Source: Candidatus Saccharimonadales bacterium (GTDB lineage: Bacteria; Patescibacteriota; Saccharimonadia; Saccharimonadales; EFPC-124). From it: DNA of 24,000 nucleotides. Numbering within the stretch: the first letter of the stretch is position 1; each line of letters starts with the position of its first letter. The stretch is taken from the NCBI GenBank assembly GCA_035710125.1, contig DASTDY010000070.1, forward strand, positions 4,198-28,197. Reading direction: 5' to 3'. The translations under genes were made by a program, and so were the position numbers. Under the pieces are notes generated by a model. It did not search any database and was not told the DNA's origin. It saw nothing but the letters and a program-made list of their open reading frames with translations. Below, in pieces: positions 247 through 23,763 of this stretch.

Positions 247-714
247 ATGACCATCGCCGGCAACAGCAGCCTGACGCATGTCAGCGAACTGGCACAGGAC
301 ACCAACACCGACCCGGCCGCCATAGAGGCGGCATGTATCGAGCTCCTGCCCGAATGGGAGGACATGGTGCCCACCGACCAGAGCAGGCTGTTCTTGCTGC
401 TGGCCGAGGCCATCGGCACCGACCCGAACCGTCTGGACGCAGCCGCCGAGCTGGCCAACGAGGCCTGGCAACTGGCCCGAGAAGACGACAGCATCGTGCT
501 GGCCGTCGAAGCACGATGCGCCTACGCACGCTTCACCGCACACGAGTGCACCACGTTCGAGGAGTACATGGGAGGCACCATGAAGCTCGGGTTCCACCTC
601 CTGATCAAGTTCGCCCAGTTGCCGAGCGACGAGATCGACGCGATCACCGAGGCTCTGAAAAAGGTCTACGCCCACGGGGTGTCGCTGATCGCCAAGGGCG
701 TACTCACCGACTAG
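247..714 (+). CDS. hypothetical acidic helical protein, high-GC island A (155 aa)
   Basis: ATG at 247 preceded by GGAGA (236-240). The amino-acid composition looks natural, unlike the Arg/Pro/Gly-rich alternative frames. About 65% G+C. Distant paralog of island B over a ~47-aa stretch (..QLAREDDSIVLAVEA.. vs ..QIAYSKGNVVLAVKA..). Confidence 0.7.
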   Translation: MTIAGNSSLTHVSELAQDTNTDPAAIEAACIELLPEWEDMVPTDQSRLFLLLAEAIGTDPNRLDAAAELANEAWQLAREDDSIVLAVEARCAYARFTAHECTTFEEYMGGTMKLGFHLLIKFAQLPSDEIDAITEALKKVYAHGVSLIAKGVLTD

Positions 715-4851: not shown

Positions 4852-5356
4852 ATGCACTCGAGGATACGGAGGACGCTGCTAGCTGCAGCGTTGGTGATAT
4901 TCATCTCCGCAAGTCTGGCAGCAACTCCCGCTCAGGCAGCAGATGGCTGTTATGGCGACTACTGTTCCGGACGCGATCCGTCAAACTACCGGTGTAGGCA
5001 ATGTCCCATGTGCTAACGACGCCAAGTCCGTGATGCACGCAGATTTGGAGGTATATCGACCCGACTACCCGGGCGCCGTCACCGGCTCCTGGGTGAAGGT
5101 CGGCGACCTTGACCTGCGATGGTCGCCTCGGTGTCAAACCAACTGGGCCAGGGCAAGCATGTTTGCAGACACCACAATGATCGCGGCGAGCGTCACCCAA
5201 AGCACTGGCTACACGATGCGCCGTCAGACCAATGGCTGGTGGGGCGGTTCATCATCAGGTGTCTACTGGACGAACATGATTTACTCGCCAGTGGCCGCCT
5301 GCAGGGCCTGGGTTGAGGGTGGCTCGTTCCGCACAAGTTCGACCGGCTGGAGATAG
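4852..5356 (+). pseudogene. frameshifted gene for a secreted DUF2690-like protein (high-GC island C)
   Basis: ATG at 4852 with AAAGGAAG upstream encodes a signal peptide (MHSRIRRTLLAAALVIFISASLAATPAQA) followed by DGCYGDYCSGRDPSNYRC, then stops at 5014. The rest (CANDAKSV...LDLRWSPRCQTNWAR...) continues in the +1 frame (ORF 4943..5356). The two Cys codons that fit the same motif position (4993 and 5009) are 16 nt apart. Confidence 0.6.
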
Positions 5357-5792: not shown

Positions 5793-6218
5793 CTACAAAC
5801 GTTTGCGATGCCGGCGAAGCTCTGCGACTTTAAGGCGTACAGCGTGACGGTCTATTAAGGCCTCGGCGTGGTCTAGTTCTACCTGGCCCTTGGCTTCTGC
5901 CTTTAGTTTTTTAGCCCGTTCGAGCGCTTCGCGGGCTTCGCTTTCTACAATATCTGCCGCGTGGTCGGCTTCGTCTACCAATAGCCGCACATGATGGCCC
6001 GACACTTCAGCCACGCCACCGTTTATGGCAAAAATCTCTACTTGGTCGTCGCTGTCGGTTTTGGTGCGGCGCACTTTTACCACACCGGCAACTACTGCAG
6101 TTACTAGCGGCGAGTGCTGCGGGTACACGGCCACCCCGCCAACAGGAGTAGGCAAGATTACCTCGTACACGTCTTCTTGGATTTTAGGGCCAGTGAGTGT
6201 TACAAATTCGAGCTTCAT
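5793..6218 (-). CDS. atpC: F1 ATP synthase epsilon subunit
   Basis: 141 aa in the last position of the atp operon. N-terminal beta-sandwich-like sequence (VILPTPVGGVAVYPQHSPLVT..) and a C-terminal helical hairpin. Confidence 0.9.
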   Translation of the reverse strand: MKLEFVTLTGPKIQEDVYEVILPTPVGGVAVYPQHSPLVTAVVAGVVKVRRTKTDSDDQVEIFAINGGVAEVSGHHVRLLVDEADHAADIVESEAREALERAKKLKAEAKGQVELDHAEALIDRHAVRLKVAELRRHRKRL

Positions 6219-6225
6219 TGCGGAG

Positions 6226-8486
<2,261 letters not shown>

Positions 8487-8489
8487 GGT

Positions 8490-10013
8490 TTAGGCCTCAT
8501 ACCCCTTAGCTATTTTTTTAGCGGTGGCCAGAATGAGCTTGCTTGTTTCTTCAGATGGTTTTGCACCTTTGCTCAGCTCTTTCATGGCGTCTTTGTGGTC
8601 GGCCCACAGGTCGGCTATAAGGGCGCGGGTAGCATCGTGAAGTTTTTCTACGGGCACGTGGTCGAACTCGCCTTGCGTAGCAGGCAATAATACGGCAACT
8701 TGCTCCCACACGCTCATTGGGCTGTATTGGGGCTGTTTGAGCAGTTCGGTGAGGCGTTGGCCGCGGTTGATGCGCTGTTTAGTCTGGGCATCTAGGTCGG
8801 TGCTAAATTGGGTGAATGCGGCAAGCTCGCGGAAACGCGCAAGGTCTAACTTTAGGCCGCCGCCAACGCTTTTAACAGCCTTGGTTTGGGCAGCGCCACC
8901 AACACGGCTCACACTTAAACCAACCGAAATGGCAGGGCGGATACCCTGGTAGAACAAACTTGTCTCTAAGAAAATCTGGCCATCGGTAATAGAAATGACG
9001 TTGGTTGGAATGTACGCACTAATGTCGCCGGCTTGGGTCTCGATTATCGGCAAGGCAGTCAGCGAGCCACTCCCAAGTTTGTCGTTCAATTTAGCCGATC
9101 GCTCCAGCAAGCGTGAATGCAGGTAAAACACATCACCAGGGTAGGCTTCGCGGCCTGGTGGGCGGCGCAATAGTAGCGACATCTGGCGGTAGGCAACAGC
9201 GTGCTTTGTGAGGTCGTCGTAAATAATCAGCGCATGCTGTTTGTTGTCGCGGAAATATTCCGCCATAGCCGTGCCTGCATAAGGGGCCAGGTACAAGAGC
9301 GACGCAGGGTCGGCAGGGCTGGTCGCAACCACAATAGATTGCTCCATAACGCCTTCTTCTTTAAGGCGCTCAACCAAGCGGCTTACTTTGCTCAGCTTTT
9401 GGCCAACGGCAACATACACGTTGATCACACCTGTTTTTTGGCGGTGCTGGTTAATCATGGTGTCGAGTGCAATAGCAGTTTTACCAGTTTGGCGGTCGCC
9501 AATAATCAATTCGCGCTGGCCACGGCCAATTGGCACAATGGCGTCGATTGCCATTAGGCCAGTCATCATGGGTTCGTGTACCGATTTACGGTCCATCACC
9601 CCTGGTGCAGCACGCTCGACCAAGCCGGTTTGCTTAGCCTTGATTGGGCCCTTGCCATCGAGCGGACGGCCAAGCGGATCTACCACGCGGCCAAGCAGTT
9701 CGGGACCAACCGGAACGGTAAGCACCGTGCCCTTTAATTTTACGCGGGCACCGGCAGCTACTTTGCTGTCTGCGCCGAGCAGTACGGCACCAATTTCGTC
9801 TTCCATTAGGTTTAGGGCGAACGCTTCAACGGTAGAGCCATCGGTAGCTTCGATCTCTAGCACCTCGTTAAAACCGGCGTTTGTTAAGCCGTACACCCAC
9901 GCCACACCGTCACCAATGCGGGTGACAATCCCGACCTCTTGAAGGTCTTGGTCGCTTTTTAGCTGGCTTATTGCAGCCTGCAACTCATTTGAGAGTTCTT
10001 TTACAGATATCAT
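8490..10013 (-). CDS. atpA: F1 ATP synthase alpha subunit
   Basis: Walker A GDRQTGKT, with [23 protein letters not shown] and [16 protein letters not shown]; the ATGA start overlaps the atpH stop. Confidence 0.95.
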
Positions 10014-10408
10014 TTTATTCCTCCGGCAATTTGATTAAGCTGTCGGCGCACAGTTGCGTCGAGTTCGTGGCGAGGGGTGCGCACAAGTATGCCACCGACA
10101 AGGGAAGGATCGAGCGTACTCGAGAGCTCCACCGTCTTAGCGCCAGTAGACTGCATAAGCAGCGCTTCGAGCGCCGTACGGATATCGTCGGTCATGGCAT
10201 GCGCGTGCGAAACCTGCGCCACCATGTGTTGGTTTTGCAAAAATAGCTCATCGGCCATATCTTTAACCAGTAGGTCGAGTTGCTTCACTTGGTTGGTATC
10301 TATAAGATACGCCGCCACTTGCTGCACAATCTGAGGCTTATCGTTTGGACGCGCCAGCAGCATGCGCACAACTTCACGGGCAAAACGGCGACGGCTCAGT
10401 TTAGGCAT
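10010..10408 (-). CDS. atpH: F1 ATP synthase delta (OSCP) subunit, short form (132 aa)
   Basis: Lies between atpF and atpA. C-terminal [26 protein letters not shown] is OSCP-like. The ATG at 10408 ([10 protein letters not shown]) overlaps the atpF end by 8 nt. The longer ORF-track start at 10459 would run deep into atpF. Confidence 0.75.
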
Positions 10409-10973
10409 TCGACCGCCCCTTTGCTGCTTCCTGCAAGGCAGTCTTAATAAGCGCTGCATCTTTGGTCGGGTCTAGTTTTTCGCGAATAATCTGCTCAGTT
10501 GCAGCAGCAACAAGATGGGCCGCCTCTGCCTTGAGCGCCTCACGCGCCTTACCAACCTCTACGTCCATCTGGGCTTTTGCTTCTTTTACAATGTGCTCGG
10601 CACGGGTGGCAGCTTTGCGCTCGGCAGCCTCAACCATTTGCGCAGCCTCTTTGTGGCTTGCTGCAACAACGGCGTCGGCTTCTTCGCGCGCCTCAGCCAG
10701 CATGGCTGCAATGGTTGCCTCAGACTTCTTAAGCGCTTCTTCTGTCTTTGCGGCATGCGCCAGACTTTTTTCTACGGATTCGCGGCGGCCTTCGATAGTT
10801 GCAACAAGTTTTGGCAATACGAATTTTCGTAGCACCAACAGCACAATCACAAAAGTTACCAGCTGGAACAAAAATCCCTGCCAGTTTAGGCCAAGTGCAG
10901 CAATGCCACTGTCACCGCTCTTTTCGGCGGTTTGAGTAGCTGCTTCAGCGGCAACATGTAATAGGTTTTGCAC
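10401..10973 (-). CDS. atpF: Fo ATP synthase subunit b
   Basis: A single N-terminal TM (FLFQLVTFVIVLLVL) followed by a long Ala/Glu/Lys-rich helix. Operon position. Confidence 0.85.
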   Translation of the reverse strand: MQNLLHVAAEAATQTAEKSGDSGIAALGLNWQGFLFQLVTFVIVLLVLRKFVLPKLVATIEGRRESVEKSLAHAAKTEEALKKSEATIAAMLAEAREEADAVVAASHKEAAQMVEAAERKAATRAEHIVKEAKAQMDVEVGKAREALKAEAAHLVAAATEQIIREKLDPTKDAALIKTALQEAAKGRSNA

Positions 10974-10985
10974 GGGCTAGCTCCT

Positions 10986-11201
10986 TTAGGCGGTTGTAAA
11001 CACGATCAGCAGAACAAAGGCAAGTACGGCGTCTACAAGACCAGCCATAATAAAGGCGGCAGACAACACCTTACCCTGTACCTCTGGGTTCTGGCCGACA
11101 GCCTTTACAGCCGATGCACCAATTAAACCTACGCCGATTGCTGGGCCAATTGCACCAAATGCAATGGTAAGGCCTTTAATTAAACTTGGGTCGATTTCCA
11201 T
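10986..11201 (-). CDS. atpE: Fo ATP synthase subunit c
   Basis: 71-aa hairpin proteolipid with a Gly-rich helix 1 (GAIGPAIGVGLIGA) and the carboxylate in helix 2 (AGLVDAVLAF). AAGGAG SD. Confidence 0.9.
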   Translation of the reverse strand: MEIDPSLIKGLTIAFGAIGPAIGVGLIGASAVKAVGQNPEVQGKVLSAAFIMAGLVDAVLAFVLLIVFTTA

Positions 11202-11222
11202 AAGATATCTCCTTATTTTTAC

Positions 11223-12071
11223 TTATTTTGCGGCATCATTCCCCGCCACTGGTTTAAGTTCGGGTTTGAGTGAATGATCATCATGTGAATCGCCACCGTG
11301 CGACGTTGTGGCCATGCCAAGGTACGCCGTGGTAAGCATTATAAAAATGTAGGCTTGGATTACGCTAAAGAAAATCTCCATAAAGTACACAGGAATCGTT
11401 GCCGCCCAGCCAAAGTTACCTGCAATATCGCCAATGACGTGCAACAATACCTCGCCAGCGTAGATTACACCAAATAAACGCATGCTGAGCGTCATAATAC
11501 GAATAAATTCACCCATGACCTCTATAAGCCCTATAAAGAGGTTCATCGGATTCCACGGCTTGTTTGTGAAGTAGTTTCTTAGGTGCCCCACAAAACCAAG
11601 TTCACGAAGCGCATAAAACTGTACCAACCCAATGGTAAGCACGGCGAGCGCGAGCGTACCGTTAAGGTCGGTAGTAAAAGGGCGGAGTAGGGGAGTTACA
11701 TGCTCGCCAGACCCCACTGTTACAGTACCCACTCCTGGCAGCAAACCAGACAAGTTGCTAATTAAAATAAAGGTGAACAGGGTAATGATGAGCGGCAAAT
11801 GTTTTGCGGCTTTTTTGCGGTCACCCCCAAAGTTTTCGGCGGCTGCGCCCACAATAAGCTCTAGCAAGCTCTCTACCCAAAACGCAAATTTACTCTTTGG
11901 ACGCAAGGTTGTGCGGCGTGCGGCGGCAATAAAAATAGCCAGTACGGCAGCACCAAGTATGACGCCAAAAAACATGGCGTTGGTAACTACAAAAGACCCA
12001 ACATTAAAAATGGGCTCTGCCGCCAGGGGTACGCCGGTACCTATTGAAGCTATGTGCTGTAGATTCTGCAT
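11223..12071 (-). CDS. atpB: Fo ATP synthase subunit a
   Basis: Polytopic membrane protein with the conserved LSMRLFGVIYAGE motif (essential Arg). First gene of the operon; no atpI upstream. Confidence 0.9.
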   Translation of the reverse strand: MQNLQHIASIGTGVPLAAEPIFNVGSFVVTNAMFFGVILGAAVLAIFIAAARRTTLRPKSKFAFWVESLLELIVGAAAENFGGDRKKAAKHLPLIITLFTFILISNLSGLLPGVGTVTVGSGEHVTPLLRPFTTDLNGTLALAVLTIGLVQFYALRELGFVGHLRNYFTNKPWNPMNLFIGLIEVMGEFIRIMTLSMRLFGVIYAGEVLLHVIGDIAGNFGWAATIPVYFMEIFFSVIQAYIFIMLTTAYLGMATTSHGGDSHDDHSLKPELKPVAGNDAAK

Positions 12072-12083
12072 TTCTTGGTGGAT

Positions 12084-12112
12084 AGTATAGCAGTAAAACA
12101 GGTGTAGGCCAA
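12084..12112 (-). promoter_or_regulatory. candidate atp operon promoter
   Basis: Read on the minus strand: TTGGCC (12107-12112), 17-nt spacer, TATACT (12084-12089). 12 nt separate it from the atpB ATG, and there is no SD. Confidence 0.4.
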
Positions 12113-12354
12113 GGCTAAGGATCGTAACGCGCCACGACTGGTGGGACGATACCTTTTAAGAACCAGTCTTTGCGTTTGGCTCACCCACCGGTTTTGATTC
12201 GGGCGATCCCCGTTACGATCGACAGTGAATTTTCTTTAATACGCTTCCACACATAAATATGATACCAAACTAAATTAACAGTTGTTGGCATGCATGCAGC
12301 ATTTTGGGCAAGATGGCCACATATAATGCCAGAAGTGACGTTCTTTAGAAACAC

Positions 12355-12383
12355 TTGACTTCTTATACGAAATATTATATGAT
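12355..12383 (+). promoter_or_regulatory. sigma70-like promoter of cassette D
   Basis: TTGACT (12355-12360), 17-nt spacer ending AAATATTA, TATGAT (12378-12383). The -35 and the spacer 3' half are identical to the cassette E promoter. Confidence 0.55.
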
Positions 12384-12415
12384 TTAATTTAGTCTGCAAG
12401 GTAAAAACCAGCAAG

Positions 12416-12430
12416 ACAAGCACCCTGCGT
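12416..12430 (+). promoter_or_regulatory. 5'-leader box of cassette D (ACAAGCACCCTGC shared with E)
   Basis: GCACCCTGCGT (12420-12430) is the exact reverse complement of ACGCAGGGTGC (12921-12931), which lies just 5' of hammerhead 1. The 13-nt ACAAGCACCCTGC recurs at 13098-13110. Confidence 0.6.
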
Positions 12431-12460
12431 TACTACCGCCTAGGAAAAGGACTTTCCGAG

Positions 12461-12883
12461 ATGAACTTCTTCGCCAAGATCGCCCAGCGTTTCACCAGCA
12501 AGAAGACCGCGGCCACCGTGTTGCACATCTTCTGCACGATCCGTTCGATGCAGACGAAGGTTGGCGGCATGCTGCACTACGCGCTGGAGAGCACCACCCC
12601 CGCCTTGTTCTGGCCGACCAGCCACACCAACCCCGCAATGGGGTTCACGGTGTGGTCCACGCCGGACCTGCACGGGTTCACCATGGACGTCGCCATCTCT
12701 TGCCCCAACCGATTGGTGCGCGCCGCGACGGAGAGAGTCCTTCGGCAGAGCCCCTACCTGGCTCCTGGCTCGCTGCAGAGCAACGGCACCACCATCTGGT
12801 GCACGTTCTCCAGCGGCTACGCCGAGCTGGCGGATCGCTACTACACCGTGCGATCCAACATGCTGGCGTACCGCCCCTCCTAG
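12461..12883 (+). CDS. hypothetical protein, high-GC cassette D (140 aa)
   Basis: ATG at 12461 with AAAGGA upstream. This is the only frame with a natural composition; the overlapping and antisense ORFs are Arg/Pro/Gly-rich. No family recognised. Confidence 0.65.
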   Translation: MNFFAKIAQRFTSKKTAATVLHIFCTIRSMQTKVGGMLHYALESTTPALFWPTSHTNPAMGFTVWSTPDLHGFTMDVAISCPNRLVRAATERVLRQSPYLAPGSLQSNGTTIWCTFSSGYAELADRYYTVRSNMLAYRPS

Positions 12884-12920
12884 TCGATTCTTGGCTTCCG
12901 CACTGCGCGGAGCCGGCGGG

Positions 12921-12933
12921 ACGCAGGGTGCGT
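12921..12933 (+). promoter_or_regulatory. GGG-loop hairpin occluding the hammerhead 1 stem III strand
   Basis: ACGCA-GGG-TGCGT. Its 3' arm overlaps the stem III 5' strand (12930-12937). The 14-nt ACGCAGGGTGCGTT is conserved in cassette E. Confidence 0.5.
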
Positions 12934-12988
12934 TTCGTCTATATCTTATAGATATACTGATGAGCTCTGATAGAGCGAAACGAAACGC
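12930..12988 (+). ncRNA. type III hammerhead ribozyme 1 (GUC cleavage after C12939)
   Basis: Stem III: GCGTTTCG (12930-12937) with CGAAACGC (12981-12988), plus A15.1:U16.1. GTC triplet at 12937-12939. Stem I: TATATCT (12940-12946), loop TAT, AGATATA (12950-12956). Core CTGATGA (12957-12963). Stem II: GCTCT, loop GAT, AGAGC (12964-12976) with the G10.1:C11.1 pair. GAAA (12977-12980). Confidence 0.85.
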
Positions 12989-13040
12989 CAACCAACACTA
13001 CATACCTTATAAGTCCAGCCATTTTTGGTTTAATTTACCA

Positions 13041-13069
13041 TTGACTTTTTTATATAAATATTATACAAT
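13041..13069 (+). promoter_or_regulatory. sigma70-like promoter of cassette E
   Basis: TTGACT (13041-13046), 17-nt spacer ending AAATATTA, TACAAT (13064-13069). Confidence 0.55.
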
Positions 13070-13097
13070 AGTACGGCATAGGAAATCCTTCCAAAGC

Positions 13098-13110
13098 ACA
13101 AGCACCCTGC
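13098..13110 (+). promoter_or_regulatory. 5'-leader box of cassette E (ACAAGCACCCTGC)
   Basis: GCACCCTGC (13102-13110) is the reverse complement of GCAGGGTGC (13644-13652) in front of hammerhead 2. Confidence 0.6.
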
Positions 13111-13129
13111 ACGAACTTGAGAGGTCTAA

Positions 13130-13600
13130 ATGGGATTCATCAGCAACTTCCGCGAGTGGCTCATCACCGACCACTTCCGCAAGGAGTTGGGCGTGGTAGG
13201 TATGGCTCTGGCGGCCATTCGCGGCCAGCAGCTGCGCTACCAGATGCGCTACGAGCTTGCGATTGCCAGCAACAAACCCGTTTACGAACCCAACGGCCCG
13301 AACTTCACCAGCACCGTCGACGTCGTCACGCCCCTGGGCACAGTCAACCTGACCGCGAACGCCGTCGGCAACGACCTGTCCAAGCTCTACCTGAGCGTGG
13401 GCTGCGGCAAGCGCCTGGCTGTGGAGCTGATCGAGGCAGCGCTCGCGGCGTCGGGCGAGGAGTTCACCCCCTTCGGAGTGGACGCGTTGGAGTTCCAGCG
13501 GGCCGAGGACTACAACGACCTCCTCTACCTGTTCACCTGCGAGATCAGCGGTGTCCCCGCACACCTGGAGGAGAGCTACCACAAGGCCTTCCCAGGCTGA
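13130..13600 (+). CDS. hypothetical protein, high-GC cassette E (156 aa)
   Basis: ATG at 13130 with GAGAGG (13119-13124) 5 nt upstream. Natural composition. No family recognised. Confidence 0.65.
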   Translation: MGFISNFREWLITDHFRKELGVVGMALAAIRGQQLRYQMRYELAIASNKPVYEPNGPNFTSTVDVVTPLGTVNLTANAVGNDLSKLYLSVGCGKRLAVELIEAALAASGEEFTPFGVDALEFQRAEDYNDLLYLFTCEISGVPAHLEESYHKAFPG

Positions 13601-13638
13601 CCTCCAACACATTCGACAGTGTCTTCGGGCACAGTCGG

Positions 13639-13657
13639 GCGAACGCAGGGTGCGTTC
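13639..13657 (+). promoter_or_regulatory. GGG-loop hairpin occluding the hammerhead 2 stem III strand
   Basis: Perfect 8-bp stem, CGAACGCA (13639-13646), loop GGG, TGCGTTCG (13650-13657). It sequesters all of GTTCG (13653-13657), which the ribozyme stem III needs. Confidence 0.55.
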
Positions 13658-13706
13658 GTCTATATCTATTAAGGTATACTGATGAGCCCTGTTAGGGCGA
13701 AACGAA
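13653..13706 (+). ncRNA. type III hammerhead ribozyme 2 (GUC cleavage after C13659)
   Basis: Stem III: GTTCG (13653-13657) with CGAAC (13702-13706), plus A:U. GTC triplet at 13657-13659. Stem I: TATATC, loop TATTAA, GGTATA (13660-13677). CTGATGA (13678-13684). Stem II: GCCCT, loop GTT, AGGGC (13685-13697). GAAA (13698-13701). Stem II carries a compensatory T:A to C:G change relative to ribozyme 1. Confidence 0.8.
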
Positions 13707-13720
13707 CAAACGAAACATCT

Positions 13721-13778
13721 AAATAGGGTGGTTGTCTTTTTTTCGACTGTCTTAGAAGAAAAAAGACACCACCCTATT
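13721..13778 (+). repeat. conserved-apex long hairpin, copy 1
   Basis: AATAG (13721-13725) pairs with CTATT (13774-13778). The middle stem GGTGGTTGTC pairs with GACACCACC (one bulged T). The apex TTTTTCGACTGTCTTAGAAGAAAAA is identical to copy 2. A possible outer extension is CATCTA (13715-13720) with TAGATG (13784-13789). Confidence 0.65.
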
Positions 13779-13808
13779 TTGCTTAGATGTTTACTCAAAT
13801 AATCCTTA

Positions 13809-13836
13809 TTGACTTTCACTCACGATAGTATAATAT
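13809..13836 (+). promoter_or_regulatory. sigma70-like promoter of cassette F
   Basis: TTGACT (13809-13814). The -10 is ambiguous within TAGTATAATATATAAT (for example TAATAT at 13831-13836 with a 16-nt spacer). Confidence 0.4.
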
Positions 13837-13909
13837 ATAATAACCCCTTAGCGATCATTTCCGCTCTGGGCTTTACGTATCCCCGTTTCTGAATCAGGAG
13901 GCACTGCGA

Positions 13910-14326
13910 ATGATCGCAGCTTGCAGAACACAGATCACGGCCCTCGGCGAGAAAGTTTTGGCCTTCATCGGCGCGCCCGACTGCACCACCAACGACACCG
14001 CGTGGTTCGGCACCTTCGGCGTCGAGCTCGGGCTGCTGCCCGAAGCCAAAGACGACAGCGTGCGCATCACCTGCGCGGTGACGTTCGCGGAGGCCGACGA
14101 CGACCTCATGGACGCCGTCACGACCTCGCTGCACGACCTCGGCATGGTCAAGACCGACGAGGACCTCGCGGCGCGGCACCTCAAGTTCGAGATGCCGACC
14201 GAGATCTGGCGCAAGTACGCGGCCGACTGCGGTCAGATCGACCTGACCTCGCCGGCTACGATCACCCCGATCGGCGCGCCCACGACGTCGCACGGCCTCG
14301 ACCTGGCCCTCGCGACCACGGCCTGA
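13910..14326 (+). CDS. hypothetical acidic protein, high-GC cassette F (138 aa)
   Basis: ATG at 13910 with AGGAGG 8 nt upstream. Natural composition, unlike the overlapping Arg-rich frame 13921..14424. Confidence 0.65.
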   Translation: MIAACRTQITALGEKVLAFIGAPDCTTNDTAWFGTFGVELGLLPEAKDDSVRITCAVTFAEADDDLMDAVTTSLHDLGMVKTDEDLAARHLKFEMPTEIWRKYAADCGQIDLTSPATITPIGAPTTSHGLDLALATTA

Positions 14327-14344
14327 CCTGCTTCACCCGCCGGC

Positions 14345-14386
14345 GGCCCCACGCCCTGTCAACTCCTCCCGCGAGGGCGTGCGGCC
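14345..14386 (+). terminator. GC-rich hairpin after cassette F (no U-tract)
   Basis: CACGCCCT (14350-14357) pairs with AGGGCGTG (14374-14381), extended by GGCC with GGCC. A second small hairpin, GGGGG-TACG-CCCCC, lies at 14405-14418. Confidence 0.45.
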
Positions 14387-14446
14387 GCCACCCATGCAAG
14401 AAACGGGGGTACGCCCCCACCTAGACTTATATGCTATATTATTTAT

Positions 14447-15729: not shown

Positions 15730-15784
15730 ATACATCTACCCTGTGTAGGTAGTTTGTTGTCCGTTGTTTTGGAGAGGAACGCAA

Positions 15785-16213
15785 ATGTGTGAAGCGCGGC
15801 GCATCATGGTCACGCCCACCGGCATCGTGCAGGACACGCCCGCACCCCAACCGCAAGCGCAGGGGACGGACGCGCATCCGCCTACCGACCAGCAGGTGTT
15901 GCTGGCCGCCGACAAGCTGGCCGGCATCGAGCTGCTGGTGTCCAACTGCGTGGGCGGCGTCGATTCGACCACTGGAGCCAAGGTGTTACAACCGCTCGAG
16001 GGTGCCGACATCGGCCTGACCGTGCTGGTGGCAGCGAACGCCGAGGCGCCCGACGGCATCGACGTGGAGTTCTTCCGCATCGAGCCGTTGGCAGCCGACC
16101 CCCGCCTGCAGTACTTGGCGTACGACCCGTACGACGAGGTGTGGTTCTTGACCTGCGGCGGCTCGCTGTGCACCAGCACGTCCGAGAGCGAGCTGGTGGG
16201 CGCACCCGCTTAA
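15785..16213 (+). CDS. hypothetical protein, high-GC island H (142 aa)
   Basis: ATG at 15785 with GGAGAGG (15771-15777). A Pro/Gln-rich N-terminal segment precedes a structured-looking C-terminal part. Confidence 0.65.
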   Translation: MCEARRIMVTPTGIVQDTPAPQPQAQGTDAHPPTDQQVLLAADKLAGIELLVSNCVGGVDSTTGAKVLQPLEGADIGLTVLVAANAEAPDGIDVEFFRIEPLAADPRLQYLAYDPYDEVWFLTCGGSLCTSTSESELVGAPA

Positions 16214-18512: not shown

Positions 18513-19232
18513 GTGGACACCGAGCAATTGCTGATTGATGTCCGCAACACCGTGCTGGCGCAGCTCAGGCCTCTGAGCGCATTCGGCGTGTACGCCATCG
18601 GCTTCAACCCGAGCCGCGTGCAGGACCGTGAAAGCGGAAACGGGAAGTTCGGCATGAACTTCGTAATCTACGCCGGATCGGAGCTGTACACCCACCTGAA
18701 CAAGCGCGGCAACCACTGCGTGTACCCCGAACGCCTGCTGTTGATCTACCGCACATTGGCGGAGGTGCTCAAGCCCTTCACCGACAGCGGCCGACTGCAC
18801 TTCATGGCGAACGAGGCCATGCTGATGGCAACTCTCCCCGAGTTCATGTGGGAGTCGGCCGGCGTAGTACTGGACGACGACCTGGTTCGGGTGCCCCAGA
18901 GCAACATCTGGGACATCTGGGACCGCGCGCTGGCCGAAGGCTGGCTGGCGGACCGCACCAACTCAGAGCTCGACCCCTGGGGCCGCGTGCTCAACAACGC
19001 ACCCCTGTTCACCGCCGAGAACCCTGACCACAACGCGTGGGCAAGCTTCTCGGTCCTGCCCTACGACTCGAAAGAGCCGCGGACAGAAGAGGCGATGGGC
19101 ATGGCTGCTCTGACCCACATCGGTTGGAACTTCCTCGGAGAGACCGAACCTCACGAGCTCCAAGAGATCGCCGAGAAGCTGCTCAGCGACTCGGTGTTCC
19201 TCAGGCAGCACAACTGCTGGGTCTTTCTCTGA
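18513..19232 (+). CDS. hypothetical protein, high-GC island I (239 aa)
   Basis: GTG at 18513 with AAGGAG (18502-18507) 5 nt upstream. Trp/Asp-rich with a natural composition. No family recognised. Confidence 0.7.
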   Translation: MDTEQLLIDVRNTVLAQLRPLSAFGVYAIGFNPSRVQDRESGNGKFGMNFVIYAGSELYTHLNKRGNHCVYPERLLLIYRTLAEVLKPFTDSGRLHFMANEAMLMATLPEFMWESAGVVLDDDLVRVPQSNIWDIWDRALAEGWLADRTNSELDPWGRVLNNAPLFTAENPDHNAWASFSVLPYDSKEPRTEEAMGMAALTHIGWNFLGETEPHELQEIAEKLLSDSVFLRQHNCWVFL

Positions 19233-21580: not shown

Positions 21581-22297
21581 CTAGCCACGTGGCAGGCAAC
21601 CTGCAGCTCCTTGCCACCACTCGCTGAGCGGTCGCTGGAGCAGGGGCCAGCCATTGCTGATATGCACGCAAATCGTGTCTGGACGGGGCATCGTGTTGTC
21701 GAGCACCACGCACACCACCCAACCCACAATGCCGCCGAGCGCCACCAGACGCATCACCATATGCCAGGCTCGCCACGGGGCTTCAACCAAGGCAGGCAAC
21801 ACCAGGGCGAACAGCGCGTAGCCGTACGTAGGCAGGATCAGCGTGTGATACACCTTGGTGGGGCTAAAAAACGCCCCCCAGGTCATGATGTTCGACTGTC
21901 CCTGCATTGAGTAGGTGACAATGGCCTCAGGGATTGTCAGGCCCAACAGGCACGCCACACCAAAGCCGACTGCCAACCAACGGAACCAGCGACGCTGATA
22001 CCACTGGTTCTCGCCGTGGAGCTCTTTGGCCAGCATGCTGGCCGCAAACCAGGTGAATCCCAAAAGCAGATCACCAGGCAAGAGTCCCAGGTACTGTTGG
22101 CTCAGGTTGACCGATCGACCCTCGACAAGCAACGCCAGAGCCAACAGGCCAACCGGAGTCGCCAACCAACCTATGTAGGGCTGGATTTTCGAGGAGTCAA
22201 AGGTCCAACGCAAGCCAGGGACAATCCGCAGTTGAATCCTCGGAAAGTCAAAAGCCCAACGAAGGCCAGGGACAATCCGCAGCTGCTGCGCCAACAT
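21581..22297 (-). CDS. polytopic membrane protein, high-GC island J (238 aa), paralog of K
   Basis: ATG at 22297 with AAGAGG upstream. It aligns with K across the E(N/G)R..S.QY.GL..GD, WYQ..W...GxGVA and SPT..(V/Y)HT blocks. The N-terminus carries a 17-aa tandem duplication. Confidence 0.65.
   Translation of the reverse strand: MLAQQLRIVPGLRWAFDFPRIQLRIVPGLRWTFDSSKIQPYIGWLATPVGLLALALLVEGRSVNLSQQYLGLLPGDLLLGFTWFAASMLAKELHGENQWYQRRWFRWLAVGFGVACLLGLTIPEAIVTYSMQGQSNIMTWGAFFSPTKVYHTLILPTYGYALFALVLPALVEAPWRAWHMVMRLVALGGIVGWVVCVVLDNTMPRPDTICVHISNGWPLLQRPLSEWWQGAAGCLPRG
22196..22282 (-). repeat. 51-bp tandem repeat (about 1.7 copies) inside the 5' end of J
   Basis: GTCAAAGGTCCAACGCAAGCCAGGGACAATCCGCAG (22196-22231) and GTCAAAAGCCCAACGAAGGCCAGGGACAATCCGCAG (22247-22282). 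The 51-nt period encodes LRIVPGLRW(A/T)FD..(R/K)IQ twice. Confidence 0.8.
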
Positions 22298-22353
22298 CTG
22301 GCACCTCTTTCGGATCGAACGAACACTTCTTCCGTAACGGAATAGCAAAAAAG

Positions 22354-22442: not shown

Positions 22443-23708
22443 TTACTTCTTGACCCAGGGCGGGTCAACCCAGCCAGCCGGCTTGGAGTTCTCGTTGCCC
22501 TGGGTGGGCGCCGAGGTCTCCTCGCCGGTCATCCACGGCGGCAGCGGCAGGCTCGACTGCGGCTGCACGATGTGAGGCTGGGTGCCGGTGTCGACCGGCT
22601 GCCTGTCGGCGATCCACGGGGGGACAGCCAACGGGCGGTTCTGCGGTGCGACGGACGGCTGGTCGGGTCCACGCCCGAAAGTCGGACGCTGGACGCCGCC
22701 ATCGAACGGAAGCGGTTTCACGAGCACCTCGCCGTCCTGCTGACGGACACGCACGACCTGAGTCGCATCGGAGTCGCGCTTGCTGTCGTCCACCACGCAC
22801 TCCGGCTTGGCTTTCACGAACGTCTGCTTCTTCGGCACCCAACGGGCGTGGCTGAAGCTGTTGTAGTACTTGTACCACTTCCAGACGAACAGCTTGTCAC
22901 GCTTGCCCGCAACCAGCAGACCCAGGAACACCTGAAGCTTGGGGAGCCACCCGTTGTAGGGGTGTACCAGGCTCAGGTCGACCTTGCGGCCACCGTTGCC
23001 TGCCTTGTAGTCCTTGCGTTCCTTGTTGTCCTTGATCACGGAGTTGACGAACCAGACGAACAGGCCGACTGCCATGACGCAGATCAGCTGAGCCGCCAGC
23101 ACCTTCTTGCCGACGCTGTAGTCGCCCAGAATGCCGTGCGTCAGTTCCACCGTCGTTGCCGACACGATGACCACCGTGAGGTAGGTCACCAGGAGGATCA
23201 GTGCGGTGTGCACCAGCGAGGTAGGGCTGAGCTGCTGACCGATGGTGTAGACACCCTCGTCGTTCAGCGACTTCCGCTTGGCCCACCTCATGGTGTGGTT
23301 CTTCGGACGACCCCACGCCCACGTGCGGGCCAGGGTGAAGAAGATCTCCGTTCCCTTGAGCAGCAACATCAACGCGACGCCGAGGCCCCAGCCGATGTTG
23401 TGCAGCCACGCCTCCTGGTACCACATGCCAGTTGTGTCCGGCAGGAGGATGAGGGTGGCGATGGTTCCCGCGGTGAGGGCGATGCCCACGCCGATGTCAC
23501 CGTACTTCAGTCCCTTGTACTGCGCGCTGTAGGGGATCCAGCGGTTCTCCAGGAGGAGTCCCGTGGTCCACATGAGCACGAAGGTGTAGATGAAGCCGGC
23601 GAACAGGGTGGTGAACGGCGTTGTCCACGTTGGCCAGATCTCGTAGAAGAATCTCGCCCACGGGTACAGGTTCAGCTTGTCGGGAAACGACGTGACGTCG
23701 ATGTTCAT
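22443..23708 (-). CDS. polytopic membrane protein with Pro-rich C-terminal tail, high-GC island K (421 aa)
   Basis: ATG at 23708 (MNIDVTSFPDK) with GAGAGG upstream. About 6 hydrophobic spans. The C-terminal ~130 aa are Pro/Gln-rich, with three PPW motifs (VPPWIAD, LPPWMTG, DPPWVKK). Confidence 0.65.
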   Translation of the reverse strand: MNIDVTSFPDKLNLYPWARFFYEIWPTWTTPFTTLFAGFIYTFVLMWTTGLLLENRWIPYSAQYKGLKYGDIGVGIALTAGTIATLILLPDTTGMWYQEAWLHNIGWGLGVALMLLLKGTEIFFTLARTWAWGRPKNHTMRWAKRKSLNDEGVYTIGQQLSPTSLVHTALILLVTYLTVVIVSATTVELTHGILGDYSVGKKVLAAQLICVMAVGLFVWFVNSVIKDNKERKDYKAGNGGRKVDLSLVHPYNGWLPKLQVFLGLLVAGKRDKLFVWKWYKYYNSFSHARWVPKKQTFVKAKPECVVDDSKRDSDATQVVRVRQQDGEVLVKPLPFDGGVQRPTFGRGPDQPSVAPQNRPLAVPPWIADRQPVDTGTQPHIVQPQSSLPLPPWMTGEETSAPTQGNENSKPAGWVDPPWVKK

Positions 23709-23763
23709 GTGCACCTCTCGGGAAAAATGGTCGGATGGTGCGCCAGGCGGCGACACCAACATT

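What the first reader, a model, noticed from the sequence alone, without database searches (positions are those of the whole stretch)
12921..13706. Two complete type III hammerhead ribozymes close consecutive high-GC gene cassettes
Both elements contain every invariant hammerhead position in the right order.

Order of parts: open stem III, GUC cleavage triplet, loop-closed stem I, CUGAUGA, loop-closed stem II with G10.1:C11.1, GAAA, then the return strand of stem III with A15.1:U16.1.

Coordinates:
- Copy 1: 12930-12988, cleavage after C12939.
- Copy 2: 13653-13706, cleavage after C13659.

The helices differ between the copies but stay paired:
- Stem II is GCTCT/AGAGC in copy 1 and GCCCT/AGGGC in copy 2.
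- Stem I loop is TAT versus TATTAA.
- Stem III is 8 bp versus 5 bp.

That is the signature of a selected RNA fold, not a chance match.

Each ribozyme sits 50-60 nt after the stop codon of an unrelated small ORF (D, E). Neither ORF has an intrinsic terminator. The ribozyme would therefore define the mRNA 3' end and separate D from the immediately following E promoter and cistron.

I am not aware of hammerheads serving as the 3'-end module of individually promoted cellular gene cassettes as a described arrangement.
Basis: partly seen in the sequence, partly recalled or inferred. Interest (0 to 1): 0.85.

Follow-up and report, generated by a model that had tools for sequence, protein, structure and literature searches.

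The report
Hammerhead ribozymes ending two orphan genes
Two real, strongly conserved self-cleaving hammerhead RNAs sit just after two small, fast-evolving genes of an uncultured Saccharibacteria genome, where they most likely cut each message to a hairpin-protected end; ribozymes flanking small bacterial genes have been described before.

Summary
Rfam RF00008 scores 42.2 and 38.0 bits. That is below the curated cut-off of 48.5, but E is 3e-6 and 5e-5 over the whole window. Seventeen related hammerheads show clear helix covariation. In a syntenic relative (L007), HHR1 is 59/60 identical, while the preceding ORF is only 82% identical and its changes fall evenly on all three codon positions.

The window comes from a Candidatus Saccharimonadales MAG. 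D and E are orphan genes with GC3 of about 0.9, each with a consensus promoter, inserted between atpB and glutaredoxin.

- A conserved 10-11 bp hairpin (P0) whose 3' arm is the 5' strand of stem III plus the cleavage site.
- A conserved 5'-UTR box complementary to P0.
- A strong terminator hairpin directly after HHR2.

Most likely the ribozymes cut the 3' UTR, separate neighbouring transcripts and leave a hairpin-capped 3' end. Cleavage may be gated by P0.

Hammerheads flanking small non-conserved bacterial ORFs are already published, so this is a new member of a known kind.

The parts
12355..12383 (+). Promoter-like site of cassette D (TTGACT-17-TATGAT)
   Evidence: 10/12 match to the sigma-70 consensus. 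It is similar to the E promoter (direct repeat D3).
12416..12431 (+). 5'-UTR box A of D (ACAAGCACCCUGCGUU), complementary to the 5' arm and loop of P0
   Evidence: Inverted repeats I4 and I5. It is 13/13 conserved in L007. An 11-nt perfect complement was reached by 1 of 1000 shuffles. It is unpaired in the isolated 5'-UTR fold.
12461..12883 (+). ORF D, a 140-aa orphan with GC3 0.91
   Evidence: Its only homolog is in L007. It is 82% nt and 72% aa identical to L007, with differences of 29/22/25 by codon position.
12893..12914 (+). GC-rich 3'-UTR hairpin of D
   Evidence: Fold. The sequence is only 62% conserved, but the stem is kept by compensatory changes (GGCUUC/GGAGCC against GACUCU/AGAGUC in L007).
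12915..12939 (+). Hairpin P0 of copy 1 (GGCGGGACGCA-GGG-UGCGUUUCGUC). Its 3' arm is the 5' strand of stem III plus C17.
   Evidence: 11 pairs. It excludes stem III. The hammerhead conformer is 0 to +2.8 kcal/mol less stable, depending on flank. It is 13/14 conserved in L007, with one G.U to A-U change.
12930..12988 (+). Hammerhead ribozyme 1, type III; predicted cleavage between C12939 and U12940
   Evidence: RF00008 42.2 bits, E 3e-6. R1 model 69.1 bits. The minimum free energy fold of the isolated motif is the hammerhead, -20.3 kcal/mol, z -4.6. It is 59/60 identical in L007.
13041..13069 (+). Promoter-like site of cassette E (TTGACT-17-TACAAT)
   Evidence: 10/12 match. It is 27/29 conserved in L007.
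13098..13110 (+). 5'-UTR box A of E (ACAAGCACCCUGC)
   Evidence: Direct repeat D6, identical to the D copy. A 9-nt perfect complement to P0 was reached by 8 of 1000 shuffles.
13130..13600 (+). ORF E, a 156-aa orphan with GC3 0.89
   Evidence: It has one homolog among 1.84 billion representative proteins. Differences from L007 are 16/8/13 by codon position.
13614..13637 (+). GC-rich 3'-UTR hairpin of E (UUCG loop)
   Evidence: Fold. The stem is kept in L007 despite 76% identity.
13638..13660 (+). Hairpin P0 of copy 2 (GGCGAACGCA-GGG-UGCGUUCGUC)
   Evidence: 10-11 pairs. The hammerhead conformer is +5.8 to +5.9 kcal/mol less stable. It is 20/20 conserved in L007. The arm changes in step with the shorter stem III strand of copy 2.
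13654..13707 (+). Hammerhead ribozyme 2, type III; predicted cleavage between C13660 and U13661
   Evidence: RF00008 38.0 bits, E 4.8e-5. R1 model 70.4 bits.
13713..13792 (+). Long palindromic hairpin followed by U-rich sequence; the likely intrinsic terminator of cassette E
   Evidence: -35.9 kcal/mol, z -8.1. Inverted repeats I1, I8 and I9.

Best explanation
Both elements are functional type III hammerhead ribozymes built into the 3' UTRs of two tandem, separately promoted accessory genes (D and E) of a Candidatus Saccharimonadales chromosome.

Inferred mechanism:
1. Transcription from each cassette promoter runs through the ORF, a GC-rich 3'-UTR hairpin and the ribozyme.
2. The ribozyme cuts after C12939 (D) or C13660 (E).
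3. The 5' product, which is the mRNA, refolds its last 23-25 nt into hairpin P0. This hairpin ends flush with the 2',3'-cyclic phosphate. It should make cleavage irreversible and block 3' exonucleases.
4. The 3' product carries a 5'-OH and takes away whatever follows. For D that is read-through into the E promoter and cistron. For E it is the terminator region.

The net effect is a defined, hairpin-capped 3' end and RNA-level insulation between neighbouring units. D especially needs this because it has no strong terminator.

Because P0 and stem III exclude each other, cleavage is probably slowed or gated. The conserved 5'-UTR box A can pair with the 5' arm and loop of P0, which in silico frees stem III.

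Shown: motif, fold family, covariation, conservation, context and the competing structures.
Inferred: cleavage in vivo, the protective role of P0 and the activating role of box A.
For: Ribozyme identity:
- Complete core and three helices.
- RF00008 E-values of 3e-6 and 4.8e-5.
- The isolated HHR1 folds as a hammerhead, z -4.6.
- An alignment of 17 related hammerheads from genomes, metagenomes and viral contigs gives a covariation score of 0.424 against 0.129 when shuffled (0 of 500 shuffles reach it) and at most 0.12 when the partner columns are slid.

Selection:
- Relative L007 is 92-94% nt identical in the atp genes, with changes at third codon positions.
- ORF D is 82% identical with changes spread evenly over codon positions. 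The D 3'-UTR hairpin is 62% identical.
- HHR1 is 59/60 identical, the single change lying in loop I. P0 is 93-100% identical.

Context:
- The ribozymes are sense to the ORFs. HHR1 starts 46 nt and HHR2 53 nt after the stop; the cleavage sites lie 56 and 60 nt after it.
- Each ORF has its own promoter-like site.
- D has only a -6.1 kcal/mol hairpin downstream.
- The same layout (small GC-enriched ORF, GC hairpin, hammerhead) occurs in L015, L014, L001 and L008.

P0 and box A:
-.
- Co-folding the 5' UTR with the 3' region yields the box A:P0 duplex together with the active hammerhead.

Literature:
- Bacterial hammerheads flank single genes and cleave in vitro and in E. coli (PMC3088659).
- An mRNA-processing or 3'-UTR role has been suggested but remains open (PMC6765202).
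Against: - No cleavage assay or RNA end data exist for this locus.
- Both copies score below Rfam's curated cut-off.
- With natural flanks the predicted minimum free energy fold is the inactive P0 conformer for copy 2 (+5.8 to +5.9 kcal/mol), and for copy 1 in one of two flank choices. Constitutive fast cleavage is therefore doubtful.
- Loops I and II are only 3-6 nt, and no loop-loop contact could be evaluated.
- E already has a strong terminator, so the ribozyme is not needed there to end transcription.
- In most other family members the ribozyme sits 4-29 nt before the next start codon. That points to 5'-end processing of the downstream gene rather than 3'-end formation.
- Box A and P0 are invariant in all four instances, so their pairing has no covariation support. 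As DNA they are also inverted repeats.
Confidence: 0.6

Rival explanations
1. Conditional switch. The resting state is the inactive P0 conformer, and cleavage happens only when the 5'-UTR box A (or a trans factor) opens P0. In this reading the ribozyme reports on the state of the 5' leader and tunes mRNA fate, rather than acting constitutively.
For: - P0 is the predicted minimum free energy fold in context.
- P0 covaries with the stem III strand between copies 1 and 2, and shows a G.U to A-U change in L007.
- Box A is conserved, predicted unpaired and complementary to P0 at 9-11 nt (reached by 1 to 14 of 1000 shuffles).
- Co-folding switches both copies to the active fold.
- Perreault et al. 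raise regulated cleavage for phage hammerheads (PMC3088659).
Against: - Only four non-independent instances exist (D and E in two genomes), with no covariation in the duplex.
- The energy differences of 0-6 kcal/mol lie within model error and ignore tertiary stabilisation. The result for copy 1 flips with the choice of flank.
- L015 shows no such complementarity.
Confidence: 0.25
2. Expression damper. Cleavage removes the downstream terminator hairpin, or exposes the message, and so shortens the life of mRNAs for possibly harmful orphan proteins made from very strong promoters.
For: - HHR2 lies between ORF E and its terminator hairpin.
- The promoters are near consensus.
- 3'-UTR ribozymes lower reporter expression in engineered bacterial constructs (summarised in PMC6765202).
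Against: - After cleavage each message still ends in two stable hairpins: the 3'-UTR hairpin plus P0, totalling -26 to -28 kcal/mol. That argues for protection, not exposure.
- D has no terminator to lose.
Confidence: 0.12
3. Excision of a unit-length RNA. Read-through transcripts from the D promoter are cut at both ribozymes. This releases a 721-nt RNA (12940-13660) carrying ORF E, with 5'-OH and 2',3'-cyclic-phosphate ends, which a ligase such as RtcB could circularise, as in retrozymes or viroid-like RNAs.
For: - The two hammerheads have the same sense and lie 721-722 nt apart.
- There is no strong terminator after D.
- The stem III strands of the two copies are near-identical, so a hybrid hammerhead could form across the junction.
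- The possibility was raised for clustered bacterial hammerheads (PMC3088659).
Against: - E has its own conserved promoter inside the unit and a terminator after it.
- D has no upstream ribozyme.
- L014, L015 and L008 carry single ribozymes.
- Perreault et al. looked for circular or spliced products in similar arrangements and detected none (PMC3088659).
- The presence of a ligase could not be checked.
Confidence: 0.05
4. DNA-level element. Box A and P0 are inverted repeats bracketing each ORF (GCACCCTGC ... GCAGGGTGC) and serve recombination or cassette exchange. The hammerhead is a passenger or relic of a mobile cassette.
For: - Inverted repeats I4 and I5.
- The D and E scaffolds (promoter, box A, P0, hammerhead) are paralogous while the ORFs differ.
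- The D/E/F array is absent from relatives L018 and L021, where grx and atpB are adjacent.
Against: - No recombinase, integrase or transposase lies in the 24 kb.
- The repeats are only 9-12 bp.
- The 59/60 conservation of a full catalytic core, while neighbouring sequence drifts 18-38%, is not expected of a relic.
Confidence: 0.05
5. Chance resemblance with no function.
For: - Scores fall below Rfam's gathering cut-off.
- The core pattern alone is not rare.
Against: - E-values of 3e-6 and 5e-5.
- Two copies in the same context.
- A compensatory stem II change between the copies.
- Family covariation.
- Conservation in L007.
Confidence: 0.01

Closest known systems
Hammerhead ribozyme type III (Rfam RF00008)
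   Same: All invariant core positions are present: C3-A9, G12-A14, A15.1:U16.1 and C17. Stem III is open, and stems I and II are loop-closed with G10.1:C11.1. Both copies align full-length to the model.
   Different: The scores of 42.2 and 38.0 bits fall below the curated 48.5. The loops are very short (3-6 nt), and stem I starts UAUA...UAUA, typical of a bacterial/phage subgroup found here. The family was first known from viroids, satellites and plant repeats; this one is in a CPR bacterial chromosome.
Clustered bacterial/prophage hammerheads flanking single genes (Perreault et al. 2011, PMC3088659; reviewed in PMC6155905 and PMC6765202)
   Same: Several same-sense hammerheads lie close together and bracket small, non-conserved ORFs of unknown function. 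The proposed role is to cut long transcripts into single-gene mRNAs.
   Different: No prophage signature lies within 24 kb. Each ORF has its own consensus promoter, so the units are not simply cistrons of one polycistronic RNA. The ribozymes sit in 3' UTRs behind GC hairpins. The P0 competitor hairpin and a complementary 5'-UTR box are present.
Synthetic ribozyme insulators such as RiboJ (sTRSV-derived type III hammerhead; from my own knowledge, not checked in a paper here)
   Same: A type III hammerhead is used to decouple a coding region from neighbouring transcribed sequence, and a hairpin is retained on the product.
   Different: RiboJ sits between promoter and RBS and defines the 5' end. 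Here the ribozyme follows the ORF and defines the 3' end. Other family members (L003, L005, L009, L012, L015, L016), which lie 4-29 nt before a start codon, resemble RiboJ more closely.
Discontinuous hammerhead in 3' UTRs of rodent Clec2 mRNAs (from my own knowledge; mouse hammerhead mentioned in PMC3088659)
   Same: A hammerhead embedded in the 3' UTR of a protein-coding mRNA, cutting between the stop codon and the normal 3'-end signal.
   Different: It is eukaryotic and split by a long insertion, and it lowers expression by removing the poly(A) signal. Here the cleaved bacterial message keeps stabilising hairpins.
Alternative foldings that hold viroid hammerheads inactive (e.g. PLMVd and ASBVd; from my own knowledge)
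   Same: A stable competing helix sequesters one strand of a hammerhead stem, so the active fold is transient or conditional.
   Different: In viroids this protects the mature circular genome. Here the competitor is a local upstream hairpin in an mRNA 3' UTR, and it would also cap the cleavage product.

Membership tests
Hammerhead ribozyme, type III (RF00008) | Invariant catalytic core: C3 U4 G5 A6 N7 G8 A9, G12 A13 A14, A15.1:U16.1, and a cleavage-site nucleotide H17 | tested here: met
   Both copies carry CUGAUGA, GAA, the A:U pair and C17 (GUC triplet) in the correct order.
Hammerhead ribozyme, type III (RF00008) | Three helices around the core: stem III open-ended, stems I and II closed by loops | tested here: met
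   Stem III is 9 and 6 bp, stem I 7 and 6 bp, stem II 5 and 5 bp. The minimum free energy fold of the isolated HHR1 is exactly this.
Hammerhead ribozyme, type III (RF00008) | Covariance-model score at or above Rfam's curated gathering cut-off (an annotation rule, not a property of the RNA) | tested here: inconclusive
   42.2 and 38.0 bits against 48.5, so no hit at gathering. The matches are full-length with E of 3e-6 and 4.8e-5. The shortfall lies in the short loops. The family-specific model gives 69-70 bits.
Hammerhead ribozyme, type III (RF00008) | Helices supported by compensatory changes among relatives | tested here: met
   17 sequences: 80% of cells paired, 68 cells with double changes, covariation 0.424 against 0.129 shuffled (0 of 500) and at most 0.12 for slid partners. 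Between the two copies, stem II U-A changes to C-G. Caveat: the base of stem I was fixed by the search pattern.
Hammerhead ribozyme, type III (RF00008) | Mg2+-dependent site-specific self-cleavage giving 2',3'-cyclic phosphate and 5'-OH ends | not testable with these tools
   No experiment or RNA end data are available.
Hammerhead ribozyme, type III (RF00008) | Tertiary contact between loops I and II (or a pseudoknot) for fast cleavage at cellular Mg2+ | not testable with these tools
   The loops are UAU/GAU and UAUUAA/GUU. No Watson-Crick pseudoknot is evident, and non-canonical contacts cannot be judged from sequence.
Clustered prophage hammerheads flanking single genes (PMC3088659) | Two or more same-sense hammerheads bracketing individual small genes | tested here: met
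   HHR1 and HHR2 are 721 nt apart and bracket ORF E; HHR1 follows ORF D.
Clustered prophage hammerheads flanking single genes (PMC3088659) | Location in a prophage or near integrase or phage genes | tested here: not met
   The 24-kb window holds the atp operon, a UvrD-like helicase, glycosyltransferases and orphans. There are no phage, integrase or PHROG hits. Only 24 kb of an 89.7-kb contig was seen.
Retrozyme / viroid-like circular RNA unit | Unit bounded by hammerheads that is excised and circularised | not testable with these tools
   The geometry allows a 721-nt unit, but no RNA data exist. The internal promoter, the terminator and the single ribozymes in L014, L015 and L008 argue against it.
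Intrinsic (Rho-independent) terminator | GC-rich hairpin directly followed by a U tract | tested here: inconclusive
   P0 plus UAUAUCUU was flagged at both sites, but the region's shuffles give 2.1 such hits and the U tract is poor. The hairpin at 13713-13792 after HHR2 fits much better.

The most novel reading that the evidence does not exclude
The two ribozymes are the output of a three-way RNA switch. An upstream hairpin (P0) locks stem III and the cleavage site. A conserved 5'-UTR box, about 500 nt away, opens P0 by long-range pairing and licenses cleavage. The same P0 then caps the product. This would be a natural hammerhead whose activity is coupled to the state of the mRNA's own 5' leader. 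It would serve a class of fast-evolving, GC3-rich orphan-gene cassettes that Saccharibacteria insert between housekeeping operons.
Probability: 0.2. Interest if true: 0.7.

Novelty: new member of a known kind. Interest (0 to 1): 0.42.

Why it matters
The biological role of bacterial hammerheads is still an open question (PMC6155905, PMC6765202). This locus is an unusually clean case:
- It is chromosomal, not in a prophage.
- It has recognisable promoters and two paralogous copies.
- A relative shows the ribozyme under far stronger constraint than the gene it follows.
- It offers an explicit, mutable competitor hairpin and a complementary 5'-UTR box, which give simple predictions for in vitro kinetics and RNA end mapping.

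The finding also places hammerheads in Saccharibacteria (CPR). A full-text search found no paper linking hammerheads with that group.

It draws attention to a set of GC3-rich, individually promoted orphan genes of unknown origin.

It does not change what is known about the ribozyme class itself.

Tried and rejected
Origin of the window:
- E. coli genomes, phage and plasmid collections gave no DNA match, so I dropped my first guess of a synthetic construct in E. coli.
- Exact-protein contig look-ups for window proteins found nothing.

More copies:
- No third or degenerate hammerhead appears in the window, even with filters off.
- None appears in four syntenic relatives.
- A pattern combining P0 and the hammerhead found nothing in viral contigs.

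Function of D and E:
- Pfam, PHROGs and NCBIfam found nothing significant (E below 0.001) for any of the ten high-GC ORFs; Pfam gave only sub-threshold hits.
- Homology searches found only the L007 orthologs.
- AlphaFold models had pLDDT of 72 (D) and 59 (E).
- D against E by hhalign was not significant: E 0.04, probability 1.3%.

Leader structures:
- An anti-SD/SD hairpin suggested by leader similarity among cassettes A, B and L015 is not supported by folding (z about 0 to +0.9).

Other family members:
- L015 shows no 5'-3' UTR complementarity.
- The L010 pair turned out to be type II hammerheads caught by the pattern.

Literature:
- No paper links hammerheads with Saccharibacteria or Patescibacteria.
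Full report
**Observation**

The sequence at 12921-13706 contains two complete type III hammerhead motifs on the + strand.

- HHR1 spans 12930-12988. Stem III is 9 bp (GCGUUUCGU/ACGAAACGC) and C17 is at 12939. Stem I is 7 bp with loop UAU. The core CUGAUGA is followed by stem II GCUCU-GAU-AGAGC and then GAA.
- HHR2 spans 13654-13707. Stem III is 6 bp and C17 is at 13660. Stem I is 6 bp with loop UAUUAA, and stem II is GCCCU-GUU-AGGGC.
Everything else it described is correct, including the compensatory U-A to C-G change in stem II.

Rfam at gathering thresholds reports nothing in the window. With E-value reporting, RF00008 (Hammerhead_3) aligns full-length to both copies. The scores are 42.2 and 38.0 bits against a cut-off of 48.5. 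E is 1.2e-7 and 1.9e-6 on 951 nt, and 3e-6 and 4.8e-5 on the whole window, where these are the only two matches with E<1. The bare core pattern is not rare by chance, so the helices carry the signal.

**Where the window comes from**

The window does not match E. coli genomes, phages or plasmids. ORFs D and E are 100% identical to hypothetical proteins of a 'MAG TPA: Candidatus Saccharimonadales bacterium' on an 89.7-kb contig.

The window carries an atp operon (5793-12071, minus strand), a UvrD-like helicase, glutaredoxin, a corrinoid adenosyltransferase, an SNase-like nuclease and glycosyltransferases. These genes have GC3 of 0.45-0.60. Between them lie about ten ORFs with GC3 of 0.83-0.92. 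None has a significant Pfam hit (only sub-threshold ones) or any PHROG or NCBIfam hit. The best sigma-70-like sites of the window sit immediately upstream of these ORFs. D (12461-12883) and E (13130-13600) are two of them.

**Evidence for function from a relative**

A Logan contig (L007) is syntenic: atp operon, then D, then E.

| Region | Identity, window vs L007 | Pattern of change |
|---|---|---|
| atp genes | 91-94% nt, 96-99% aa | almost all at third codon positions |
| ORF D | 82% nt, 72% aa | 29/22/25 by codon position |
| ORF E | 90% nt, 84% aa | 16/8/13 by codon position |
| D 3'-UTR hairpin | 62% nt | stem kept by compensatory changes, GGCUUC/GGAGCC to GACUCU/AGAGUC |
| HHR1 | 59/60 | the one change is in loop I |
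| Segment just upstream of HHR1 and HHR2 | 13/14 and 20/20 | |

The ribozyme is therefore under much stronger constraint than the gene it follows.

**Evidence from the family**

A pattern built on the shared features of the two copies found related hammerheads:
- two Saccharibacteria MAGs and one other MAG;
- three viral contigs;
- ten metagenome contigs.

Seventeen distinct sequences align with 80% of cells paired. The covariation score is 0.424 against 0.129 for shuffles (0 of 500 reach it) and at most 0.12 for slid partners. Double changes occur in the distal part of stem I, in stem II and in stem III. The base of stem I was fixed by the pattern and says nothing. One member, L010, is really a type II pair flanking a small ORF.

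A model built from this alignment scores the window copies at 69-70 bits. It finds no third copy in the window and none in four syntenic relatives.

**Context**

- In relatives L018/L019 and L021, glutaredoxin and atpB are adjacent. L020 has other ORFs there. The D-E-F array is therefore a lineage-specific insertion at that junction.
- The accessory ORFs of those relatives are also GC3-enriched, at 0.72-0.85.
- D and E share paralogous scaffolds: promoter, a 13-nt 5'-UTR box, the pre-ribozyme segment and the ribozyme, spaced 682-722 nt apart. The ORFs show no significant similarity.
- The same layout (promoter, small variable ORF, GC hairpin, hammerhead) occurs in other Saccharibacteria-like contigs. 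In L015 a 143-aa ORF with GC3 0.72 is followed by the ribozyme 87 nt after its stop. L008/L001 have a 45-aa ORF. In both cases the ribozyme lies 28-29 nt upstream of an MMPL transporter gene. In L014 the ribozyme comes after a high-GC operon.
- In several low-GC, phage-like members the ribozyme lies 4-29 nt before the next start codon.

The family thus marks boundaries between adjacent coding units. The window copies are the 3'-UTR variety.

1. The 23-25 nt ending at each cleavage site form a hairpin, which I call P0.
   - Copy 1 is 12915-12939, GGCGGGACGCA-GGG-UGCGUUUCGUC. Copy 2 is 13638-13660.
   - Its 3' arm is the 5' strand of stem III plus C17, so P0 and the active ribozyme exclude each other.
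   - The arm differs between the copies in step with the different stem III strands. L007 has a G.U to A-U change.
   - With natural flanks, the active conformer is predicted 0 to 2.8 kcal/mol (copy 1; 0.2 in L007) and 5.8-5.9 kcal/mol (copy 2) above the minimum free energy fold. These numbers ignore tertiary stabilisation and lie near model error for copy 1.
2. Each 5' UTR has a conserved, predicted-unpaired box, ACAAGCACCCUGC (12416-12428 and 13098-13110). It is complementary to the 5' arm and loop of P0 over 9-11 nt, a match reached by 1 to 14 of 1000 shuffles. Co-folding the 5' UTR with the 3' region gives the box:P0 duplex together with a formed stem III in both cassettes.
3. HHR2 is followed at once by a strong hairpin with a U-rich tail (13713-13792, -35.9 kcal/mol, z -8.1). 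D has only a weak hairpin downstream. Cassettes A and B end in ordinary terminators and F ends in two GC hairpins, all without ribozymes.

**Mechanism**

The best-supported reading is that each ribozyme cuts the 3' UTR of its cassette.

- The upstream product, the mRNA, keeps the 3'-UTR hairpin and can refold its end into P0, flush with the cyclic phosphate. The two hairpins together have -26 to -28 kcal/mol. This should prevent religation and hinder 3' exonucleases.
- The downstream 5'-OH fragment is uncoupled. For D this separates its message from read-through into E.
- P0 followed by UAUAUCUU may also act as a weak terminator giving nearly the same end.

These steps are inferred; cleavage itself is untested. 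The competition between P0 and stem III suggests slowed or gated cleavage, with box A as a possible activator. I rate that sub-model at about 0.2-0.25, because the four instances are not independent and show no covariation.

Rivals are an expression-damping role, excision and circularisation of a 721-nt E unit, and a DNA-level role for the inverted repeats. All are weaker, for the reasons given under each rival explanation.

**Comparison with what is known**

The elements meet the defining sequence and structure features of type III hammerheads. The Rfam cut-off miss is an annotation-threshold matter, and catalysis and tertiary contacts could not be tested.

The arrangement is not new in kind:
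- Perreault et al. 2011 (PMC3088659) describe multiple hammerheads flanking individual genes or short blocks, propose processing into single-gene mRNAs, show cleavage in vitro and in E. coli, and mention circular products that they could not detect.
- The de la Pena review (PMC6155905) notes hammerheads close to each other flanking small non-conserved ORFs.
- Weinberg et al. 2019 (PMC6765202) list mRNA processing and 3'-UTR effects as suggested but unproven roles.

Four things differ here:
- the setting is non-prophage and chromosomal, in a CPR bacterium;
- each cassette has its own promoter;
- the ribozymes follow GC3-rich, fast-evolving orphans;
- the P0/box A architecture is present.

A full-text search found no paper linking hammerheads with Saccharibacteria or Patescibacteria.

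**Verdict**

This is a new member of a known kind, with a possible regulatory twist worth a bench test. Interest is 0.42.

Noticed in passing
window 247-714, 846-1232, 12461-12883, 13130-13600, 13910-14326, 15764-16213, 18513-19232, 22443-23762(-); weaker 4943-5356, 21581-22348(-): About ten orphan ORFs with GC3 of 0.83-0.92 are scattered between housekeeping genes with GC3 of 0.45-0.60 in a roughly 50% GC Saccharimonadales genome. The window's best sigma-70-like sites sit just upstream of them. None has a significant Pfam, PHROG or NCBIfam hit. D and E evolve with changes spread evenly over codon positions. Their origin (host Actinobacteria, phage or de novo) and their function are unknown.
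   Followed up: partly
L018, L020, L021 (syntenic relatives) against window 12072-14446: Housekeeping synteny (UvrD, atp operon, glutaredoxin, CobA-like, SNase, glycosyltransferases) is conserved, but the junctions carry different accessory ORFs or none. Those ORFs are also GC3-enriched (0.72-0.85). Glutaredoxin and atpB are adjacent in L018 and L021, so the D-E-F array is an insertion.
   Followed up: partly
L015 985-1690; L008 2610-3050 (same as L001): Two other Saccharibacteria-like contigs carry the layout promoter, small variable ORF (143 aa or 45 aa), GC hairpin, type III hammerhead, 28-29 nt upstream of an MMPL transporter gene. The start of the L008 promoter and leader (TGATTTAATTT) resembles cassette D of the window.
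   Followed up: partly
window 12072-12354 against L007 5080-5778: L007 has a 232-aa DUF6766 gene between atpB and cassette D. The window lacks about 560 bp of it (BLAST blocks break at window 12214), leaving a remnant.
   Followed up: no
window 12461-12883 and 13130-13600 (proteins D and E): The AlphaFold models of D (pLDDT 72) and E (pLDDT 59) share the same order of secondary-structure elements: a long N-terminal helix, three strands, a helix, one or two strands, a helix. hhalign aligns two cysteine positions (E 0.04, probability 1.3%). They may be very remote paralogs, but this is not established.
   Followed up: partly
window 14327-14446: Cassette F ends with two GC-rich hairpins (a 15-bp interrupted stem at 14342-14389 and GGGGG-UACG-CCCCC at 14405-14418). 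It has no U tract and no ribozyme, directly before the glutaredoxin start.
   Followed up: no
window 12989-13015: The 27 nt after HHR1 (CCAACCAACACUACAUACCUUAUAAGU) are 26/27 identical in L007. This is more conserved than the neighbouring spacer, and no role could be assigned. A CCAACAC heptamer recurs just after the E stop codon (13604-13610).
   Followed up: no
L010 6190-6780: Two type II hammerheads about 490 nt apart flank a small ORF on a low-GC, phage-like metagenome contig. This is a textbook example of the published arrangement.
   Followed up: partly
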